From positions 1,890,001-1,922,000 of the forward strand of contig NZ_CP007754.1 in NCBI RefSeq assembly GCF_000757865.1: a DNA stretch of 32,000 nt, in the 5' to 3' direction. This DNA is from Prochlorococcus sp. MIT 0801 (GTDB lineage: Bacteria > Cyanobacteriota > Cyanobacteriia > PCC-6307 > Cyanobiaceae). Both the position numbers and the translations under genes were made by a program. This document shows, in pieces, positions 861-6,715 of this stretch; positions within the stretch are counted from its first letter, which is position 1, and the number at the start of each line of letters is the position of its first letter. Under the pieces are notes generated by a model. The model was not told the origin of the DNA. It was given only the letters and a program-made list of their open reading frames with translations, and did no database searches.

Positions 861-1750
861 GGCAAGTTACCCAAAATATTAACAAGACCACGATGAATAA
901 TATCAATCTCAAGCAAAGATTTAAGCTGCTCTCCTTTACTATCAATTTCTACATTTTTGTTTGGAGTCAAAAGATAGGGAATAGGAAGATAATTCTTCTC
1001 CTTTTTAACAGTATCTTGATTCCATCTAGACCATGAATAAAGAGGAATATTTAGGAATTTTTCTAAGGACTTAAGAAAAACATCTGAAGTATCTGAAGAG
1101 ACAGGGTGATGAATCAACGCAGGTTTAAGAAAAGGACTCTGACTAGTTATCAGATCATCTATTAATGATAGCCATGGTATAAAAGAACCTAGGAAAGGAA
1201 ACAATTTTATATTTTGTCCCTCTTCTTGCAAACGTTTAAATATTTTTGGTACATCAATACAAACATGACTTCCAGGTAACAAAAAAAGAGGAACTAAAAA
1301 CACTGATCTATTACCGATGTCAATTTGCTCTGGATTGTCATCAGTTAAAGCCTCTATTGAAACAGAGCGATTTTTATGCCTTTTTAATTGGTCAACCAAA
1401 GAAAGAAGAGATGGATGTATCTCACCACCTCTAGAACCATGCACTAGTAAATGTAAATGGTGAGGAGGCTCACAATTAATTCTATTTGGTAACAAAGACA
1501 ACTTTTGATGGACATCTGAAGATGTATTAGTACTTTCAGCTAATTTATTAAAATTGAGATGATGAGAAATTCTAGATACTCGAGAACAAATAATTTCAGG
1601 CGAGGAGAGGGGGTTGATCGAAGAAACACTCAATACAGAGGAAGAAAAAGATTCAAAAGTACTTTTCATAGAGACCTCTTTGCTATGAAAGAGGTTTGGG
1701 AAATGCTCAAAAGTGGAGCGATTAGAAGCCTCGGAGAAATTGGACGCCAA
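857..1750 (-). CDS. CbiX/SirB-like class II chelatase (candidate sirohydrochlorin ferrochelatase) with a Ser-rich N-terminal extension
   Basis: 297-aa ORF. HLLVHGSRGGE and VFLVPLFLLPGSHVCIDVPKI resemble the CbiX motifs (xxxGHGSR; PLFLxxGxHxxxDIP). The track start at 1750 is TTG and the first in-frame ATG is at 1669 (MKSTFESF), so the true start is uncertain. The stop overlaps the cobA ATG. Confidence 0.6.
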   Translation of the reverse strand: MASNFSEASNRSTFEHFPNLFHSKEVSMKSTFESFSSSVLSVSSINPLSSPEIICSRVSRISHHLNFNKLAESTNTSSDVHQKLSLLPNRINCEPPHHLHLLVHGSRGGEIHPSLLSLVDQLKRHKNRSVSIEALTDDNPEQIDIGNRSVFLVPLFLLPGSHVCIDVPKIFKRLQEEGQNIKLFPFLGSFIPWLSLIDDLITSQSPFLKPALIHHPVSSDTSDVFLKSLEKFLNIPLYSWSRWNQDTVKKEKNYLPIPYLLTPNKNVEIDSKGEQLKSLLEIDIIHRGLVNILGNLP

Positions 1751-1803
1751 TACTAAATGAGAAATTATGAAACCAATTAATCAATTAAATGGATAAACAG
1801 GAT

Positions 1804-1817
1804 GTATTGAATGATAC
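1804..1817. promoter_or_regulatory. NtcA-box candidate 1 (GTA-N8-TAC)
   Basis: The sequence tGTAttgaatgaTACc is an exact match to the palindromic NtcA core consensus. It lies in the 153-bp divergent spacer between the CbiX-like gene and nirA, about 60 nt upstream of the minus-strand ORF start at 1750. Confidence 0.55.
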
Positions 1818-1837
1818 CAAAATAAATAAAAAATTTG

Positions 1838-1851
1838 GTAAAAACTGATAC
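1838..1851. promoter_or_regulatory. NtcA-box candidate 2 (GTA-N8-TAC), proximal to nirA
   Basis: The sequence gGTAaaaactgaTACa is an exact core match. AT-rich -10-like hexamers (TAATTA 1876-1881, TATAAA 1880-1885) lie 24-28 nt downstream, and the nirA ATG is at 1904. This geometry is compatible with a class-II NtcA-activated promoter. Confidence 0.6.
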
Positions 1852-1903
1852 ATCTAAAGTTTAGATTTTAAAGGTTAATTATAAATGTCAAGTCTCAATA
1901 CCA

Positions 1904-3565
1904 ATGGTTCAATACTATCTCGAAGGCAAAAAACTAAATCAAGTTGAAAAAAATAAAGCTGCTAAGGATGGACTCGAAATCGGAAAGGATATAGACAAAT
2001 TTGCTGAAATGGGATGGGAGCAAATGGATAAAACTGATTTAGAATTAAGATTGAAATGGTATGGGATGTTTTGGAGACCCAAAACCCCTGGAAAGTTTAT
2101 GTTAAGGTTAAGAATACCTAATGGAATAATCAATGCAGAACAATTAAAGGTAATTGCATCAATTGTTGCGAGATATGGAGAGAATGGAAGTTGTGATATA
2201 ACAACTAGGCAAAATATACAACTTAGAGGTGTTTTGATTAGTGATTTGCCTGAGATATTAAATAGGTTAAAAAAAGTAAACATATCAACAACTCAATCTG
2301 GATTTGATAATCCAAGAAATGTTACTGGAAATCCCATCGCTGGAGTTGATCCAGAAGAGATTATAGACACAAGAATATATACATCAAAAATGCAAGACCA
2401 TTTAACTAATGATGGTAAGGGAAACTCAGAATTTTCAAATCTTCCAAGGAAATGGAACACAGCTATAGCAGGCTCTAAGGATAATTTTCTTTTACATAAT
2501 GATTTAATTTTTCATCCAGTTAAAATTAATGGGGTTTTAGGTTTTAGTGTTTGGATTGGAGGCGTACTTTCATCAGTAATGAATGAATATGCAGTTCCGT
2601 TGAATGCCTGGGTTGAAGAAGAAAAAATTTATGAATTAACATCAATTATTTTATCCCTATGGAGAGATAATGGGGAACGTAATATAAGACCTAAAGGTAG
2701 GTTTAGATTTTATTTAGATAAAATTGGCATTGAAACATTTAGAGATCTTATCGAAAAACAATATGGAACATTAAAAGAAGATCCAGGCTCAATATTTTCA
2801 GATAAACCAAGGTCATTTTTTGGAATTCATTCTCAAAAACAAGAAGGTAAATATTTTGCAGGAATTCATGTGCCAGTAGGCCGTCTTTTGGCTGAAGATT
2901 TACAAGATCTAGCAAATATATGTGAGAATTTTGGTGATAAAGAAATAAGACTTACCGAAGATCAAAATATTATTATTACTGGTATAGATACAAATCTAAT
3001 TGAAGAATTTAAGGAGCAATCTATCTTACAAAAGTTTCCATTAGAACCAGAAACTATTGCAGCAGGTACTGTTTCTTGTACTGGAAATACCTATTGTGGT
3101 TTCGCTCTAACAAATACAAAGGATCAAGCTTTAAAAATCTCGCATGAATTAGACAAAGAATTAGATTTGAAAGACGAATTAAAGATTCATTGGACTGGGT
3201 GTCCTAATAGTTGTGGTCAAGCCTATATGGGAGGAATTGGTTTAACGGGCAAAAAAGCTAAAGACAAAGAAGGAAAAACCGTTGAAGCTTATGATATAAG
3301 CATTGGTGGATCACAAGGGCCTAATTATAAATTAGGAGAATTAATAAAAAAATCTGTCCCTCAAGATGAATTAAAAGATGTACTAAAAGATTTACTTATT
3401 TCAGATTTTGATGCAAAAGAAAAAATATTTTTAAGTAAAAAATCTGGTTCATTATCTCGATTTATGAATTGGTTTAGTCCTCTTGGCAAAGATAAACCGC
3501 TGATTAATCGAGCTAATGGCAGCCACGACATCTTTTCCAAATTTATGAATCGAATTAGCAATTAA
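1904..3565 (+). CDS. nirA: ferredoxin-nitrite reductase (siroheme/4Fe-4S) with a C-terminal extension of about 45 aa
   Basis: 553-aa ORF. It has two nitrite/sulfite reductase half-domains. The cluster-ligand cysteines are in SCTGNTYCGFA and WTGCPNSCGQ. An NtcA-box promoter lies upstream. Confidence 0.93.
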   Translation: MVQYYLEGKKLNQVEKNKAAKDGLEIGKDIDKFAEMGWEQMDKTDLELRLKWYGMFWRPKTPGKFMLRLRIPNGIINAEQLKVIASIVARYGENGSCDITTRQNIQLRGVLISDLPEILNRLKKVNISTTQSGFDNPRNVTGNPIAGVDPEEIIDTRIYTSKMQDHLTNDGKGNSEFSNLPRKWNTAIAGSKDNFLLHNDLIFHPVKINGVLGFSVWIGGVLSSVMNEYAVPLNAWVEEEKIYELTSIILSLWRDNGERNIRPKGRFRFYLDKIGIETFRDLIEKQYGTLKEDPGSIFSDKPRSFFGIHSQKQEGKYFAGIHVPVGRLLAEDLQDLANICENFGDKEIRLTEDQNIIITGIDTNLIEEFKEQSILQKFPLEPETIAAGTVSCTGNTYCGFALTNTKDQALKISHELDKELDLKDELKIHWTGCPNSCGQAYMGGIGLTGKKAKDKEGKTVEAYDISIGGSQGPNYKLGELIKKSVPQDELKDVLKDLLISDFDAKEKIFLSKKSGSLSRFMNWFSPLGKDKPLINRANGSHDIFSKFMNRISN

Positions 3566-3854
3566 TTCGATTTTATAAAAAATTATTTTTCTAACTTTTT
3601 AAATTTATGACTCAAAGTACTTCTCAAATGAGCTACGTCTTACCTAAAGATTCTATTTCTCGTTTCATGAATTGGTTTAACAACCTTGGTAAAGATAAAC
3701 CGCTGATTAATCGAGCTAATGGCAGCCACGACATCTTTTCCAAATTTATGAATCGAATTAGCAATTAATTCGATTTTATAAAAAATTATTTTTCTAACTT
3801 TTTAAATTTATGACTTCAAGTGCCTCTCAAATGGACTATGTCCTACCAAATGAA
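3449..3854 (+). repeat. tandem direct duplication, period 203 bp (unit 3449-3651 repeated at 3652-3854)
   Basis: Hand alignment at a constant offset of 203 shows no indels. Positions 3488-3611 are identical to 3691-3814 (124/124). The left arm has about 28/39 matches and the right arm about 29/40. Confidence 0.9.
3607..3768 (+). CDS. chimeric small ORF (53 aa): first 15 codons of a transporter-gene copy fused in frame to a copy of the NirA C-terminal tail
   Basis: It runs from ATG 3607 to TAA 3766-3768 and encodes MTQSTSQMSYVLPKDSISRFMNWFNNLGKDKPLINRANGSHDIFSKFMNRISN. It is preceded by the same 41-nt spacer that precedes the transporter ATG at 3810. It is below the 60-aa ORF-track cutoff. 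Expression is unknown. Confidence 0.4.
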   Translation: MTQSTSQMSYVLPKDSISRFMNWFNNLGKDKPLINRANGSHDIFSKFMNRISN

Positions 3855-4721
3855 TTGGTAGATGGAATGATTGCTGCAGGTGGCAAGAAATCATCTGTAA
3901 GCGTAAAAAACTTGCTAATAAGAGGCTTCTATTCAGGAGCAATTTTAGGTTTAGCGACATGTCTTGCAATTACTATTGGTATTCAATCAGGGATGCCTTG
4001 GTTAGGTTCTTTTATATTTCCTTTTGGTTTTGCAAGTATCGTTCTTTTCGGTATGGAGCTTGTTACTGGTAATTTTGCGTTACTACCAATGGCTGTATGG
4101 GCTGGAAAGAGTTCTTGGTCTGCAACTGTAAGGAATTGGCTATGGGTTTGGATCGGTAATTTTCTAGGTACAGCATTTGTTGCCGTACTACTTTCAATTA
4201 GTTTATCAAGTGCTGGAAATGTAGATCCATTAACTGCTGCTGAAGGTGGAAAAGGATGGGCAGTTGTAGCAGCAAAAATAATAGCTATACATAAAGCAAA
4301 CACAGTTGTTAAATATGAAGCACTTGGAAGTACTGGTTTTTTCCTTGCATTTTTACGTGGAGTAATTGCAAACTGGCTAGTTTGTTTAGGTGTAACAATG
4401 GCACTTGTAAGTAAAAGTGTTCCAGGAAAGATACTTGCTTGCTGGCTACCTATAACTGCATTCCAAACAATGGGAATGGAGCACATAGTAGTTAATATGT
4501 TTTTGCATACAACTGGCCCTCTACTTGGTTCGGGTATTCCTTTTACAAAAGTAATTTTTTGGAATTTCTTACCAGTGACGATTGGAAATATTGTTGGAGG
4601 AATGGTATTTATTGGAATGCTTTTCTATAGCACCCACAAAACTCCTATCTCTAATGTTTTACCAGACGTAAAAGATGAAAAATTAGAACGAGAGCTCGAA
4701 GCACAACTTGGTGCAAGATAA
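3810..4721 (+). CDS. focA: formate/nitrite transporter family protein (FocA/NirC type; probable nitrite channel)
   Basis: 303-aa polytopic membrane ORF. It has the FNT-family motifs FGMELVTGNF and GNIVGG. It lies immediately downstream of nirA. Confidence 0.9.
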   Translation: MTSSASQMDYVLPNELVDGMIAAGGKKSSVSVKNLLIRGFYSGAILGLATCLAITIGIQSGMPWLGSFIFPFGFASIVLFGMELVTGNFALLPMAVWAGKSSWSATVRNWLWVWIGNFLGTAFVAVLLSISLSSAGNVDPLTAAEGGKGWAVVAAKIIAIHKANTVVKYEALGSTGFFLAFLRGVIANWLVCLGVTMALVSKSVPGKILACWLPITAFQTMGMEHIVVNMFLHTTGPLLGSGIPFTKVIFWNFLPVTIGNIVGGMVFIGMLFYSTHKTPISNVLPDVKDEKLERELEAQLGAR

Positions 4722-4751
4722 AATTAAAAAAATTAAATTTTAAACTAAATT

Positions 4752-4786
4752 AAGAAAGCCTAGAAAGTTGTATTCTAGGCTTTCTT
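4752..4786 (+). terminator. strong hairpin downstream of the transporter gene (probable intrinsic terminator)
   Basis: aagaaagcctagaa (4752-4765) pairs perfectly with ttctaggctttctt (4773-4786), giving a 14-bp stem and a 7-nt loop, 31 nt after the stop codon. There is no clean U-run after the stem, so efficiency is uncertain. Confidence 0.6.
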
Positions 4787-4860
4787 AATATGTCTACTAT
4801 TTAATAGTTATTAATAGGGTTTTAAAAAATTTTCCATTAATCTCTAAACAAATCAGATAC

Positions 4861-4890
4861 TTGACTTGATCAATAAACAAATAGTAAATT
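4861..4890 (+). promoter_or_regulatory. candidate sigma70-type promoter for the HEAT-like/TrpD-like pair
   Basis: It has TTGACT (4861-4866), an 18-nt spacer and TAAATT (4885-4890), about 50 nt upstream of the ATG at 4940 and downstream of the hairpin. It is a pattern match only, in AT-rich DNA. Confidence 0.25.
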
Positions 4891-4939
4891 AAAAAATTAC
4901 TCTGATTAATTATTTTCTAATCCACTAAATTTAAATTCT

Positions 4940-5650
4940 ATGATTATTGAAGAAAGCAATATATGGGATACCATTAATAACGCGAAAAAAACCAAGCCAA
5001 GTGCTGAGTGGCTTAAGACTGCATACAATCCAAATATTAACTTTGAACTTAGACAAGAAATCGCTATTCGCTTGGGACAATTATCAAAAGTAGGATGGAT
5101 AAAAATAAAAGATCTACTTAAGACGTATGGAAATAAAGATGAACTAATCCTTGCTGCAGGACTTACTTATCAAGATGATGCCAAAGAATGGCTCTTAAAC
5201 CATCTTTATAGTGATGACACAATGAACATCAAAGTCGTAGAAGCTTTGGCTTGCTGGGGAGGAACCTTACCGATTGAGCTTATTAAAAAAACATTAGAAG
5301 AAAAAAGTGCAGAAATGAAAATAGCTGGTTTAGAATTATTAAAATTCAAAGCTCATTTACTTTCTGATTTTGATTTACTTGAGATAGCAAAATCTCCTTT
5401 AAATGATTTCAGAGAAGAGATAGTGATCAAAACACTGACAATAATTCAAAGACGTGAAAGCTTAAATATCTGTGAAGCAATCAGCGATGTAATACAAAAA
5501 GGCTCGGATAAATCTGCATACTATGGACTAATGGCTCTTGGTTCAATCGGTACTGAAATTAGTAAAAAAATCCTATTAGATTTAGTTAAAAATTTAAAGA
5601 ATACTGAGCGCAAAGAACTTGCAAAAAAACAACTTAACTTTGAAATATAA
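4940..5650 (+). CDS. hypothetical alpha-helical repeat protein (HEAT/PBS-lyase-like repeats)
   Basis: 236-aa ORF with repeated blocks of about 30-35 aa of helix-turn-helix character (for example VVEALACWGG, IAGLELLKF, VIKTLTIIQ, GLMALGSIG). Its stop is 6 nt before the next ATG, so it probably forms an operon with 5657-6715. Confidence 0.6.
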   Translation: MIIEESNIWDTINNAKKTKPSAEWLKTAYNPNINFELRQEIAIRLGQLSKVGWIKIKDLLKTYGNKDELILAAGLTYQDDAKEWLLNHLYSDDTMNIKVVEALACWGGTLPIELIKKTLEEKSAEMKIAGLELLKFKAHLLSDFDLLEIAKSPLNDFREEIVIKTLTIIQRRESLNICEAISDVIQKGSDKSAYYGLMALGSIGTEISKKILLDLVKNLKNTERKELAKKQLNFEI

Positions 5651-5656
5651 ACTCCA

Positions 5657-6715
5657 ATGACAAATAAATATGAAGAATTTAAAACCTATTTAAAAAAAAT
5701 AGGTAGTGGTGAGTTTACAGGAAAAAGTCTTACTCGCGAAGAAACTAAATCAGCTCTCATGCTGATGCTAAAAGAAGAAGCAAGTGCAGCCCAAATTGGT
5801 GGCTTCATGATTGCACATAGAATTAGACGTCCTATCCCTGAAGAACTAGCCGGGATGATTGATGCCTATATCGAACTAGGACCCAAAATTCAATCGCCCA
5901 GTAATCAACGTCAACCTATATTTTTTGGGATGCCTTTTGATGGTAGGAAAAAAACTGCACCTATTTATCCTCTGACAACTTTACTATTACTAACTCAAAA
6001 ACAGCCTGTTATTTTGCATGGTGGTTCTCGTATGCCAGTAAAATACGGCGTTACCCATAACGAACTCTTTCAAGCCTTAGGAATAAATTTAACCGGTCTA
6101 TCCATAGAACAATTGCAAAGTTTTTTCAACCATAACGACCTAGCTTTAATACATCAGCCAGATCATTTTCCGCTAGCTGAAAATTTAATTCCTTATAGAG
6201 ATCAAATAGGTAAGCGCCCACCTCTAGCAAGTATGGAATTAATCTGGACATGTCATCAAGGAAGTCATCTACATATAAGTGGCTATGTTCATTCTCCTAC
6301 TGAAGAAAGACATTGGAAGACCTTAGAACTTATGGGAGAACAAAATGTGATTACTATCAAAGGACTGGAAGGTGGAATAGATCTTTCAATAAGTCGTTCA
6401 TCAACAATTGGACAGTACAAAAATCAACATGGAACTAGAACTGTTTTTCATCCAAAAGACTACGAATGTTCTGGAAAAGATGTTGAATGGAGCGACATCA
6501 CAGAATGGAAGAAATTTGCTTTACAAGCTCTTCATGGCGAGGGTCCTTTAAGTAAAGCACTTGAATGGAATACTGGTATTTACTTTTTTTATGCAGGTAT
6601 AAGCTCTGATATTAAAGAAGGAATAAATAAAGCAAAAGAAGTAATCAATTCAGGATTTGCTCTCAAGCAATTAGAAAAATTAATTCATTGGAGTGACGAA
6701 AATATTGATTCCTAA
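5657..6715 (+). CDS. anthranilate phosphoribosyltransferase-like protein (glycosyltransferase family 3 fold; divergent TrpD paralog, function unknown)
   Basis: 352-aa ORF. The N-terminal helical domain (LTREETKSALMLMLKEEASAAQIGGFMIAHRIRRPIPEELAGMIDAY) matches the Glycos_trans_3N pattern. The canonical GTGGDG and KHGN(R) motifs are replaced by GMPFDG (5927-5944) and LHGGSR. Confidence 0.65.
   Translation: MTNKYEEFKTYLKKIGSGEFTGKSLTREETKSALMLMLKEEASAAQIGGFMIAHRIRRPIPEELAGMIDAYIELGPKIQSPSNQRQPIFFGMPFDGRKKTAPIYPLTTLLLLTQKQPVILHGGSRMPVKYGVTHNELFQALGINLTGLSIEQLQSFFNHNDLALIHQPDHFPLAENLIPYRDQIGKRPPLASMELIWTCHQGSHLHISGYVHSPTEERHWKTLELMGEQNVITIKGLEGGIDLSISRSSTIGQYKNQHGTRTVFHPKDYECSGKDVEWSDITEWKKFALQALHGEGPLSKALEWNTGIYFFYAGISSDIKEGINKAKEVINSGFALKQLEKLIHWSDENIDS

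What the first reader, a model, noticed from the sequence alone, without database searches (positions are those of the whole stretch)
3449..3854. A 203-bp tandem duplication across the nirA/transporter junction creates an in-frame chimeric 53-codon ORF
The unit 3449-3651 recurs at 3652-3854 at a constant offset of 203 with no indels. The unit holds the last 39 or so codons of nirA, its stop, the 41-nt spacer and the first 15 codons of the FNT transporter gene. The right edge of copy 1 (transporter codon 15) abuts the left edge of copy 2 (NirA tail) in frame. As a result, ATG 3607 opens MTQSTSQMSYVLPKD|SISRFMNWFNNLGKDKPLINRANGSHDIFSKFMNRISN*, with its stop at 3766-3768. This ORF is below the 60-aa track cutoff and would be missed by routine annotation. 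Its 41 upstream nucleotides are identical to those in front of the genuine transporter ATG (3810), so it should share whatever initiation signal that gene uses. It also sits inside the NtcA-controlled nirA-transporter transcript. The product would be a free-standing copy of the NirA C-terminal tail carrying the transporter's N-terminal peptide. That could be a competitor or adaptor for a reductase-channel contact, or simply a young duplication scar.
Basis: seen in the sequence. Interest (0 to 1): 0.75.

Follow-up and report, generated by a model that had tools for sequence, protein, structure and literature searches.

The report
Duplication re-creates a small nitrite-cluster protein gene
The 203-bp duplication is real and old, and its 53-codon "chimeric" reading frame is a rebuilt stand-alone copy of a conserved, unstudied roughly 45-residue protein that nearly all marine picocyanobacteria encode between their nitrite reductase and nitrite channel genes.

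Summary
Window 3446-3648 and 3649-3851 (boundaries ±3 nt) are head-to-tail copies with 22 mismatches and no indels. They share a 125-nt identical core.

The interpretation needs correcting. The "NirA tail" (residues 508-553) lies beyond the canonical nitrite reductase. It is a fused copy of a 41-49 aa two-helix protein. That protein is free-standing between nirA and the FNT nitrite-channel gene in 57 of the 58 more distant loci where nirA lies directly upstream. The family has 249 clusters, no Pfam or NCBIfam model, and shows a coding signature.

In this low-light Prochlorococcus lineage the protein is fused to NirA. The duplication rebuilds a free-standing gene using the channel gene's leader, ATG and first 14 codons.

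The duplication is not an artefact: the exact 53-aa product occurs in 208 assembly blocks, and the same ORF from its second ATG is annotated in strains MIT0801 and XMU1403. It is not young: a lineage with 84% NirA identity has the same junction and an intact ORF (pN/pS 0.27 at pS 0.44). Gene conversion keeps the two copies alike.

Function is inferred only. Whole or partial fusions to NirA in several lineages suggest a partner of NirA or the channel. Phage-like contigs also carry homologs.

The parts
1804..1851 (+). Two NtcA-type boxes (GTATTGAATGATAC at 1804-1817, GTAAAAACTGATAC at 1838-1851) upstream of nirA. This is the likely promoter region of the nirA, small ORF and FNT operon.
   Evidence: 2 of the 5 GTA-N8-TAC matches in the 32-kb window fall here. 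One search shows the sequence. Function is inferred, not tested.
1904..3424 (+). nirA core (codons 1-507), ferredoxin-nitrite reductase.
   Evidence: Pfam NIR_SIR and NIR_SIR_ferr. NCBIfam NF007125 equivalog scores 877 bits and covers residues 2-507. The AF2 core is confident.
3425..3565 (+). NirA C-terminal extension (codons 508-553 plus the stop). This is the fused copy of the small two-helix protein.
   Evidence: It lies outside the NirA model. A profile built only from free-standing homologs hits it at 65 bits, E 2e-19. AF2 gives pLDDT below 50 with no docking.
3446..3648 (+). Duplication copy 1: the tail of nirA, the stop, the 41-nt spacer, and the ATG with 14 FNT-derived codons.
3649..3851 (+). 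Duplication copy 2: the body of the chimeric ORF, the stop, the 41-nt spacer, and the genuine FNT start.
3488..3612 (+). 125-nt tract identical to 3691-3815, interpreted as a gene-conversion tract.
   Evidence: permutation p < 5e-6. Strain-specific SNPs are shared by both copies within each of 12 genomes and in L086.
3542..3579 (+). Stem-loop spanning the TAA stop, followed by a U-rich run. It is repeated at 3745-3782.
   Evidence: -11.2 kcal/mol, z -2.6. One search reports the inverted repeat. Stop-spanning hairpins with different sequences occur in several other lineages. The role is unknown.
3607..3768 (+). Chimeric 53-codon ORF (a second in-frame ATG at 3628 gives 46 aa). This is the rebuilt free-standing small-protein gene.
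   Evidence: The independent profile scores 71.9 bits, E 1e-21. It is intact in 12 of 12 duplication-bearing close genome sequences (the window plus 11 loci), in L083/L084 and in L086. The exact product is in 208 collection blocks. AF2 predicts two helices at 13-29 and 41-52.
3810..4721 (+). FNT-family nitrite channel gene (focA/nitM type).
   Evidence: Pfam PF01226 at 212 bits. TIGR00790.
4749..4789 (.). 17-bp palindromic terminator-like stem-loop after the FNT gene, the likely operon end.

Best explanation
SHOWN. The NirA C-terminal 46 residues and the 53-codon ORF are two copies of one small protein. That protein is about 44-47 aa long and has two amphipathic-helix motifs, D-[FL]-F-S-R-F-V-N-W-[FL] and D-x-F-S-[RK]-L-M-N-R-I-S-x-stop, joined by a flexible linker. 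In almost all other marine Synechococcus and Prochlorococcus it is a separate gene between nirA and the FNT nitrite-channel gene. In this low-light Prochlorococcus lineage the gene is fused in frame to nirA. A 203-bp tandem duplication spanning tail, stop, leader and FNT codons 1-14 places a second copy of the tail behind the FNT leader and ATG, so a stand-alone gene exists again. The event is old: a lineage with an 83%-identical nirA core has the same junction. The two copies evolve in concert by gene conversion, and the frame has stayed open.

INFERRED. The ORF is translated from the NtcA-driven nirA-FNT transcript using the duplicated FNT leader, and it serves as this lineage's version of the free small protein. 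Its two amphipathic helices bind NirA and/or the FNT channel or the membrane surface. That would couple or tune nitrite import and reduction. The fused copy tethers the same module to the enzyme.
For: Homology. A profile built from 62 free-standing proteins, with no sequence from this lineage, hits only two places in the six-frame window: the chimeric ORF (71.9 bits) and the NirA tail (65 bits).

Family. 249 clusters of 41-49 aa proteins were found in the 90%-identity collection and 46 representatives at 50% identity. A homologous copy, free-standing or fused, is present in 73 of 81 sequences (80 FNT-anchored genome loci plus the window). Seven of the eight without it lack an adjacent nirA. 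Look-ups starting from the small protein itself always gave the order cobA, cbiX, nirA, small ORF, FNT.

Coding signature. Codon-position entropy is 0.91 / 0.68 / 1.47, and median dN/dS is 0.26.

Fusion. The NirA model ends at residue 507. Other lineages carry only motif 1 or only motif 2 on the NirA C-terminus. This is Rosetta-stone evidence for a NirA partnership.

The duplication is real and widespread. It is in 11 of the 15 closely related genome-collection loci (mostly single-cell assemblies) and in two further NCBI assemblies with contigs up to 1.5 Mb. Strains MIT0801 and XMU1403 carry it as an annotated 46-aa protein on a contig of up to 1.93 Mb. The exact 53-aa product is in 208 blocks.

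Age and constraint. L086 (84% NirA identity) has the same junction and an intact ORF whose motif is the canonical DFFSRFVNWF, while its fused copy has drifted to YSMSRFMNWF. Window versus L086 gives pN/pS 0.27 at pS 0.44 for the chimeric ORF. On the nirA-core NJ tree the duplication is in a deep-branching lineage (L086) as well as the crown group, with single-copy forms nested inside.

Concerted evolution. Two helices. Amphipathic moment 0.67-0.76. Homologs on phage-like contigs argue that the free peptide is active on its own.
Against: There is no expression evidence of any kind: no RNA, ribosome or peptide data.

Gene conversion from two selected templates, the NirA tail and the true FNT start, could keep most of the ORF clean without selection on the ORF itself. 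Only about 85 nt evolve independently.

Some lineages and strains with the fused NirA show a single copy (L005, L008, L010, L012, L085, L087, L102, L103). A free copy is therefore not indispensable, although these may be short-read assembly collapses across the 125-nt identical core.

AF2 did not dock the tail onto NirA (pLDDT below 50), so there is no structural support for a NirA contact.

A 40-aa paralog class sits at loci unrelated to nirA or FNT, so the family's target need not be NirA or the channel.

The order of events, fusion then duplication or the reverse, is not resolved.
Confidence: 0.7

Rival explanations
1. Neutral but long-lived scar. The duplication has no function of its own. 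The chimeric frame stays open only because gene conversion keeps overwriting it from the NirA tail and from the real FNT 5' end, both of which are under selection.
For: There is clear concerted evolution with a 125-nt identical core. Apparent single-copy relatives show the free copy is dispensable. One frameshifted variant exists (P0010). No expression data exist.
Against: A tandem repeat with a recombinogenic identical core should collapse quickly in a streamlined genome with a deletion bias (established knowledge). Yet it has persisted since before a lineage with pS 0.44 split off. The regions not homogenised, chimeric codons 1-28, still show pN/pS of 0.24-0.44. In L086 the free copy keeps the family's canonical DFFSRFVNWF motif while the fused copy has diverged, the opposite of passive copying. 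The chimeric copy scores higher against the free-protein profile than the fused copy does.
Confidence: 0.2
2. RNA-level or regulatory role. What matters is a second copy of the stop-spanning hairpin, the U-rich tract and the FNT leader. These could act as an attenuator, a processing site, or a translated upstream ORF that sets FNT expression relative to nirA. The peptide would be incidental.
For: The hairpin plus U-run is duplicated. Stop-spanning hairpins with different sequences recur in other lineages. The small ORF always ends 12-61 nt before the FNT ATG.
Against: No Rfam family matches. The hairpin is weak (-11 kcal/mol, z -2.6) and largely dictated by the conserved MNRIS codons. The peptide sequence itself is under purifying selection across the family, and phage-like contigs carry it without nirA or FNT.
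Confidence: 0.08
3. Assembly artefact: only one copy exists in the cell.
For: None positive. Short-read assemblers do mishandle such repeats, and two metagenome contigs 100% identical in NirA and 99-100% in FNT are single-copy (L102, L103).
Against: The two copies differ at 22 positions, and the junction sequence (...CCTAAAGAT|TCTATTTCTCG...) can only arise from a tandem arrangement. The same structure is found in 11 further genome-collection loci, most of them single-cell assemblies. It is also in two NCBI assemblies with contigs up to 1.5 Mb, and the exact 53-aa product occurs in 208 collection blocks, 20 of them with contigs over 1 Mb. A divergent metagenome lineage (L086) has the same junction. 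Assembly error would collapse such a repeat rather than create it.
Confidence: 0.01

Closest known systems
Uncharacterised small protein encoded between nirA and the FNT gene in marine picocyanobacteria (e.g. P. marinus MIT9313 CAX32444.1 / WP_041384806.1; Synechococcus Minos11 SynMINOS11_02666). It is annotated 'hypothetical protein' or, wrongly, 'ferredoxin--nitrite reductase'.
   Same: It has the same two motifs, the same C-terminal MNRIS-x-stop, the same position immediately upstream of the FNT ATG and downstream of nirA, and the same predicted two-helix architecture.
   Different: Here the N-terminal 14 residues, the start codon and the leader are borrowed from the FNT gene by duplication. 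A second copy is fused to NirA. The product is 53 (or 46) aa rather than 41-49 aa.
NirP1 of Synechocystis sp. PCC 6803 (nitrite-reductase-interacting small protein; PMC10907346).
   Same: Both are small proteins tied to nitrite reductase within an NtcA-linked nitrogen regulon. The fusions to NirA seen here suggest physical association, as co-immunoprecipitation showed for NirP1. NirP1 is reported absent from Prochlorococcus and most marine Synechococcus, which leaves an open niche.
   Different: There is no sequence or fold relationship. NirP1 is 76-86 aa and is predicted to have four beta strands, one invariant Cys and three invariant Trp. This family is 41-49 aa, has two helices, one Trp and no Cys. 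NirP1 is encoded elsewhere under its own promoter. Interaction and function are untested here.
Gene fission and fusion ('Rosetta stone') events, and tandem-duplication-derived chimeric genes kept alike by gene conversion.
   Same: A protein exists fused in some lineages and split in others. A tandem duplication creates a new start for the distal part. The repeats undergo concerted evolution.
   Different: Here fused and split forms coexist in one genome at one locus. The new start is taken from the downstream neighbour gene rather than arising de novo.
FocA-PflB coupling in E. coli, where an enzyme contacts the cytoplasmic N-terminus of an FNT channel (recalled from the literature, not checked here).
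   Same: It provides a conceptual precedent for an FNT channel being functionally coupled to the enzyme that handles its substrate. The chimeric product even carries the FNT N-terminal peptide.
   Different: No homology is implied, no interaction is shown here, and the partner enzyme and substrate differ.

Membership tests
nirA-FNT-linked small protein family of marine picocyanobacteria (unnamed) | Significant match to a profile built from free-standing members only. | tested here: met
   the chimeric ORF scores 71.9 bits (E 1.3e-21) and the NirA tail 65.0 bits. The next best of 803 six-frame segments scores 10 bits.
nirA-FNT-linked small protein family of marine picocyanobacteria (unnamed) | Two motifs (D-x-F-S-R-F-V-N-W-F/L and D-x-F-S-R/K-L-M-N-R-I-S) with the second ending one residue before the stop. 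| tested here: met
   Alignments A2 and A4. W23, D42, S45, M48, N49 and S52 of the chimeric ORF fall in invariant columns.
nirA-FNT-linked small protein family of marine picocyanobacteria (unnamed) | Gene located between nirA and the FNT gene, ending 12-61 nt before the FNT ATG. | tested here: met
   The ORF ends at 3768 and the FNT ATG is at 3810, a 41-nt spacer.
nirA-FNT-linked small protein family of marine picocyanobacteria (unnamed) | Own short N-terminus (3-10 variable residues) and a length of 41-49 aa. | tested here: not met
   The N-terminal 14 residues are FNT-derived and the length is 53 aa (46 aa from the second ATG). It is a derived, rebuilt member rather than a direct ortholog.
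NirP1 | 76-86 aa with an invariant central Cys, three invariant Trp, and four predicted beta strands (PMC10907346). | tested here: not met
   One search gives the paper's definition. By contrast searches show one Trp, no Cys and two helices.
NirP1 | Physical interaction with NirA and a nitrite-excretion phenotype. | not testable with these tools
   There is only indirect evidence from the fusions. AF2 did not dock the tail.
Ferredoxin-nitrite reductase NirA | Match to the NCBIfam equivalog NF007125 above its cut-off. | tested here: met
   877 bits against a cut-off of 594, covering residues 2-507 only. The small ORF alone matches no NirA model, so its PGAP name is a misnomer.
Formate/nitrite transporter (FNT) family | Pfam PF01226 match over the full channel. 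| tested here: met
   211.8 bits for 3810-4718. The chimeric ORF contains only the first 14 codons, so it is not a transporter.
Tandem duplication with gene conversion | Head-to-tail copies at constant offset, and within-genome copies more alike than orthologous copies between genomes. | tested here: met

The most novel reading that the evidence does not exclude
The two-helix peptide may be the marine-picocyanobacterial counterpart of NirP1. It would be a NirA- and/or nitrite-channel-binding regulator or tether, analogous in role but not homologous. It would set how much imported or nitrate-derived nitrite is reduced versus released. It exists free, fused to NirA, or both, and cyanophages would have captured it to reprogram host nitrite and reductant use. 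The LLI duplication would then be a natural fission experiment in which selection restored the free form after a fusion.
Probability: 0.3. Interest if true: 0.85.

Novelty: new variant of a known kind. Interest (0 to 1): 0.65.

Why it matters
Prochlorococcus and marine Synechococcus dominate ocean primary production. Their handling of nitrite, whether uptake, reduction or release of up to about 30% of assimilated nitrate, shapes the primary nitrite maximum (PMC10470740).

The only known protein regulator of cyanobacterial nitrite reductase, NirP1, is reported absent from these organisms (PMC10907346). This work identifies a conserved, unstudied small protein sitting exactly between the reductase and channel genes. 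It is fused to the reductase, in whole or in part, in several lineages. In one abundant clade it has been rebuilt as a free gene by a duplication. Phage-like contigs also carry it.

That gives a concrete, testable candidate for enzyme-channel coupling or regulation. It also provides a clean natural example of fusion followed by duplication-mediated fission with concerted evolution.

There is a practical annotation point as well. Hundreds of these small proteins are misnamed "ferredoxin--nitrite reductase" in public records.

Tried and rejected
1. Homology to NirP1 is rejected on the defining features.

2. AF2 of full NirA with its tail, to see intramolecular docking, was uninformative. The tail has pLDDT 26-38.

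3. A profile search against PDB gave only chance hits (influenza haemagglutinin, E 0.025). Pfam and NCBIfam gave no model for the small protein.

4. Rfam on 1600-5000 found nothing relevant.

5. I tested whether the ancestral small gene itself arose by the same kind of junction duplication. If so, its start region should resemble the FNT start region. Over 54 distant loci the mean z was 0.37, so this is not supported. DNA similarity between partial NirA tails and the adjacent small ORF is only weak.

6. An exact 23-nt junction pattern in the JGI metagenome contigs gave 0 hits. The protein-based look-up then found the product in 208 blocks.

7. tblastn of the phage-type homolog against GenBank phage genomes gave no match. 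The phage evidence therefore rests on metagenomic viral contigs only.

8. Literature searches for the peptide motifs, for a NirA C-terminal extension in Prochlorococcus, and for a MIT0801 nirA duplication found nothing describing this.

9. The single-copy status of some relatives cannot be used as firm evidence of loss. Short-read assemblies can collapse a repeat with a 125-nt identical core, and L102 and L103 are 100% identical to the window in NirA (99-100% in FNT) yet single-copy.
Full report
OBSERVATION

The window sequence, the repeat finder and Tandem Repeats Finder (period 203, 1.9 copies, 0% indels, score 674) confirm a head-to-tail duplication. In the register 3446-3648 / 3649-3851 the copies differ at 22 positions, all near the two ends. 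Positions 3488-3612 and 3691-3815 are identical over 125 nt. That clustering was never reached in 200,000 permutations. Similarity ends at the unit edges.

The unit contains the last 38-39 codons of nirA (1904-3565, 553 aa), its TAA, a 41-nt spacer, and the ATG plus 14-15 codons of the FNT transporter gene (3810-4721). Its 41 upstream bases are identical to those before the true FNT ATG.

WHAT THE "NirA TAIL" IS

The NCBIfam equivalog for ferredoxin-nitrite reductase aligns to residues 2-507 only. Residues 508-553 are an extension.

I fetched 80 genome loci through the FNT protein and translated the nirA/FNT junction in each.

- Fifteen close relatives have NirA at least 95% identical to the window. 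Most are Prochlorococcus single-cell genomes.
- Every more distant Prochlorococcus and marine Synechococcus locus with nirA directly upstream of FNT, except L065, has a separate small ORF there. An example from RCC307 is MAQKADFFSRLVNWFSTSGKDKPAINKPEGSKDAFSKLMNSISG*.
- This ORF is homologous to the window's tail.

The family alignment shows a 41-49 aa protein with two related motifs joined by a variable linker:

- D-[FL]-F-S-R-F-V-N-W-[FL]
- D-x-F-S-[RK]-L-M-N-R-I-S-x-stop

One homolog has a linker stretched by a proline-rich insert (P0306).

A profile search of 5.8 billion proteins found 249 clusters. An exhaustive HMM search of 1.84 billion representatives found only 46, essentially all small proteins or NirA fragments plus a few unrelated repeat proteins. 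There is no Pfam or NCBIfam model, no relative with a solved structure and no paper that I could find.

Sources name these proteins "hypothetical protein" or, misleadingly, "ferredoxin--nitrite reductase".

The family is genuinely coding. Over the last 38 codons, codon-position entropies are 0.91 / 0.68 / 1.47 and median dN/dS is 0.26.

A profile made only from free-standing members hits exactly two places in the six-frame window:

| Target | Score |
|---|---|
| Chimeric ORF | 71.9 bits |
| NirA tail | 65.0 bits |

Look-ups that start from the small protein, not from FNT, always return the same order: cobA, cbiX-like, nirA, small ORF, FNT, HEAT-like ORF, then (cynS) and a trpD-like gene.

WHAT THE DUPLICATION DID

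In this lineage the small protein is fused in frame to NirA. The window's chimeric ORF, read from its second ATG, is the 46-aa protein annotated in strains MIT0801 and XMU1403. MIT0801 is an LLI-clade strain (from recall, not checked here), so this is probably the "type I NirA plus FocA" configuration of PMC10470740.

The 203-bp duplication places a second copy of the protein's body behind the FNT leader, ATG and first 14 codons. This re-creates a free-standing gene. The Asp at chimeric codon 15 aligns with GGT in the fused copy and with Asp in more divergent fused tails. The junction is therefore FNT codon 14 | D-x-x-S-R-F.

REALITY, AGE AND CONSTRAINT

The structure is present in 11 of the 15 close genome loci, always with an intact ORF. 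The exact 53-aa product is indexed in 208 blocks of the public assembly collection, 20 of them with contigs over 1 Mb. Further intact 53-aa variants come from ENA and JGI metagenomes. One frameshifted variant was seen (P0010).

More divergent NirA proteins with the full fused tail exist at 80-88% identity:

| Locus | NirA identity | Copy state |
|---|---|---|
| L085 | 80% | single |
| L087 | 88% | single |
| L086 | 84% | duplicated |

L086 has the same 203-bp architecture, the same junction and an intact 53-codon ORF: MTQSTSQMDYVLPNDFFSRFVNWFNRLGKDKPSINRINGSPDLFSKFMNRISS. In L086 the free copy carries the family's canonical DFFSRFVNWF, whereas the fused copy has drifted to YSMSRFMNWF.

On a nirA-core NJ tree the duplication is in a deep-branching lineage (L086) as well as the crown group. 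Single-copy genomes are nested at two places within the crown.

Window versus L086 comparisons:

| Region | pN/pS |
|---|---|
| Chimeric ORF (pS 0.44) | 0.27 |
| NirA tail | 0.27 |
| NirA core | 0.16 |
| Chimeric codons 1-14 and 15-28, partly outside the conversion tract | 0.24 and 0.44 |

Within each genome, strain-specific substitutions in the core are shared by both copies. This is concerted evolution by gene conversion.

The duplication is therefore neither an artefact nor young. The apparent single-copy relatives may be real collapses by recombination in the identical core, or they may be short-read assembly collapses. L102 and L103 are 100% identical to the window in NirA (99-100% in FNT) yet single-copy. 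That point stays open.

MECHANISM

The following are shown:

- homology of both copies to the free-standing family
- fusion to NirA
- the duplication architecture
- gene conversion between the copies
- a frame that has stayed open over substantial divergence

The following are inferred.

1. Expression. Two NtcA-type boxes lie upstream of nirA (1804-1817 and 1838-1851). There is no promoter-like site in the junction, and a strong palindromic terminator-like element follows FNT. The leader is identical to that of FNT.

2. Molecular role. AF2 predicts two helices (13-29 and 41-52, pLDDT about 73) with a flexible linker. Both motifs are strongly amphipathic (hydrophobic moment 0.67-0.76).

3. A NirA partnership. 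Several lineages carry the whole protein (this one), only motif 1 (...DFFSRFMNWFSELGESSxG*, at least 28 clusters) or only motif 2 (...GGSDFFSKFMNRISG*) on the NirA C-terminus. This is classical Rosetta-stone evidence that the peptide works with NirA.

Because the gene invariably abuts the FNT gene, a role as tether or regulator between reductase and channel or membrane is the most economical hypothesis.

Direct support is lacking. AF2 leaves the fused tail undocked (pLDDT below 50).

RIVALS

- Passive preservation of a neutral scar by conversion. This is possible, but it is hard to square with long persistence of a recombinogenic repeat in a streamlined genome, or with the L086 motif pattern.
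- An RNA-level role for the duplicated hairpin and leader. It is weakly supported.
- Assembly artefact. This is excluded.

COMPARISON WITH KNOWN SYSTEMS

The closest functional analogue is NirP1 of Synechocystis, a NiR-binding small protein. Its authors report that it is absent from Prochlorococcus and most marine Synechococcus (PMC10907346). This family is not homologous to NirP1: it has two helices, one Trp and no Cys, against four beta strands, three Trp and one Cys.

As an evolutionary event it is a fusion followed by duplication-mediated fission, with concerted evolution.

VERDICT

It missed that the tail is itself a captured small gene, that the duplication is old and widespread, and that annotators already call the ORF.

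Interest is moderately high. This is less for the duplication itself than for exposing an unstudied, conserved, phage-borrowed small protein at the heart of the nitrite-assimilation cluster of the ocean's dominant phototrophs.

Noticed in passing
L081:3977-4123 and L082:3977-4123 (IMG/VR contigs of 57.5 and 81 kb); L183-L186 (Tara/Logan contigs, protein P0296): Phage-like contigs encode free-standing homologs: MNSIKPSNDLFSRFVNWFSNSGSDYILADSKVGGKDFFSRLMNRISTM and MKAVNQPRDFFSRFVNWFSNSHPDGVLVDSKMGGKDFFSRWMNRISE. They sit next to phage-type psbA (phrog_182), hsp20 (phrog_432) and phage-only ORFs, with no nirA or FNT nearby. This may be a new cyanophage auxiliary gene. There was no match in GenBank phage genomes.
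   Followed up: partly
L127:2498-2617, L131:2498-2617, L155:2393-2617, L158:740-964, L180:272-391: A 40-aa paralog class (MD[FL]FS.FVNW...GKDLP...FSRFMNKISG) lies at loci unrelated to nirA or FNT. In L127 and L131 it sits between ORFs that, by eye, look like a rubredoxin-like protein and trigger factor, downstream of a purU-like ORF. These neighbour identities are my reading of the translations and were not tested. The family is therefore not exclusively tied to the nitrite cluster.
   Followed up: partly
NirA C-termini in L018, L027, L048, L052 (motif 1 only) and L058, L070 (motif 2 only); proteins P0135-P0142, P0227, P0238: Many NirA proteins end in just one of the two small-protein motifs while a complete free small gene follows. 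DNA-level similarity to the neighbouring gene is weak. These look like older, independent partial fusions or remnants.
   Followed up: partly
window 3542-3579 and 3745-3782; equivalent positions in L015-L023, L054-L060, L076-L080: A stem-loop spans the stop codon of the small ORF in several lineages, with different sequences (for example GATCAGCGGCTAACTGTTGATC in Synechococcus). This may be a conserved RNA element or a by-product of the MNRIS codons. Covariation was not tested.
   Followed up: partly
public records for P0004, P0012, P0031, P0062, P0075, P0076 and others: PGAP and UniProt name many of these 41-57 aa proteins 'ferredoxin--nitrite reductase'. No NirA model matches them. The name probably propagates from similarity to the fused NirA tails.
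   Followed up: yes
L102 and L103 (metagenome contigs OBPD01000014.1 and OBOA01000017.1): NirA is 100% identical to the window in both contigs, and FNT is 100% (L102) and 99% (L103), yet both are single-copy at the junction. This is either a very recent collapse or, more likely, a short-read assembly collapse across the 125-nt identical core.
   Followed up: no
protein P0010 (JGI, 47 aa): One frameshifted version of the chimeric ORF exists: MTQSTSQMSYVLPKDSISRFMNWFNNLGKDKPLLIEPMAAPTSFPNL. It could be a sequencing error or a real pseudogenised allele.
   Followed up: no
window 4940-5650 and 5657-6715: A 236-aa ORF with no Pfam or NCBIfam hit (faint HEAT_2 hits in orthologs) and a TrpD-like protein (NCBIfam PRK07394, 'hypothetical protein', 545 bits) follow the FNT gene, in the window and in all related clusters examined. 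Both are conserved and uncharacterised members of the nitrite cluster.
   Followed up: no
window 3361-3561 (-) and 3633-3764 (-): Antisense ORFs of 66 and 43 aa overlie both tail copies. They are a consequence of the duplication and the codon pattern. The codon-position statistics favour the sense frame.
   Followed up: no
L065 (Synechococcus MAG JAYKIT010000080.1), about 3790-3990: This is the only locus with nirA directly upstream of FNT that lacks a recognisable small ORF in the 200-nt spacer.
   Followed up: no
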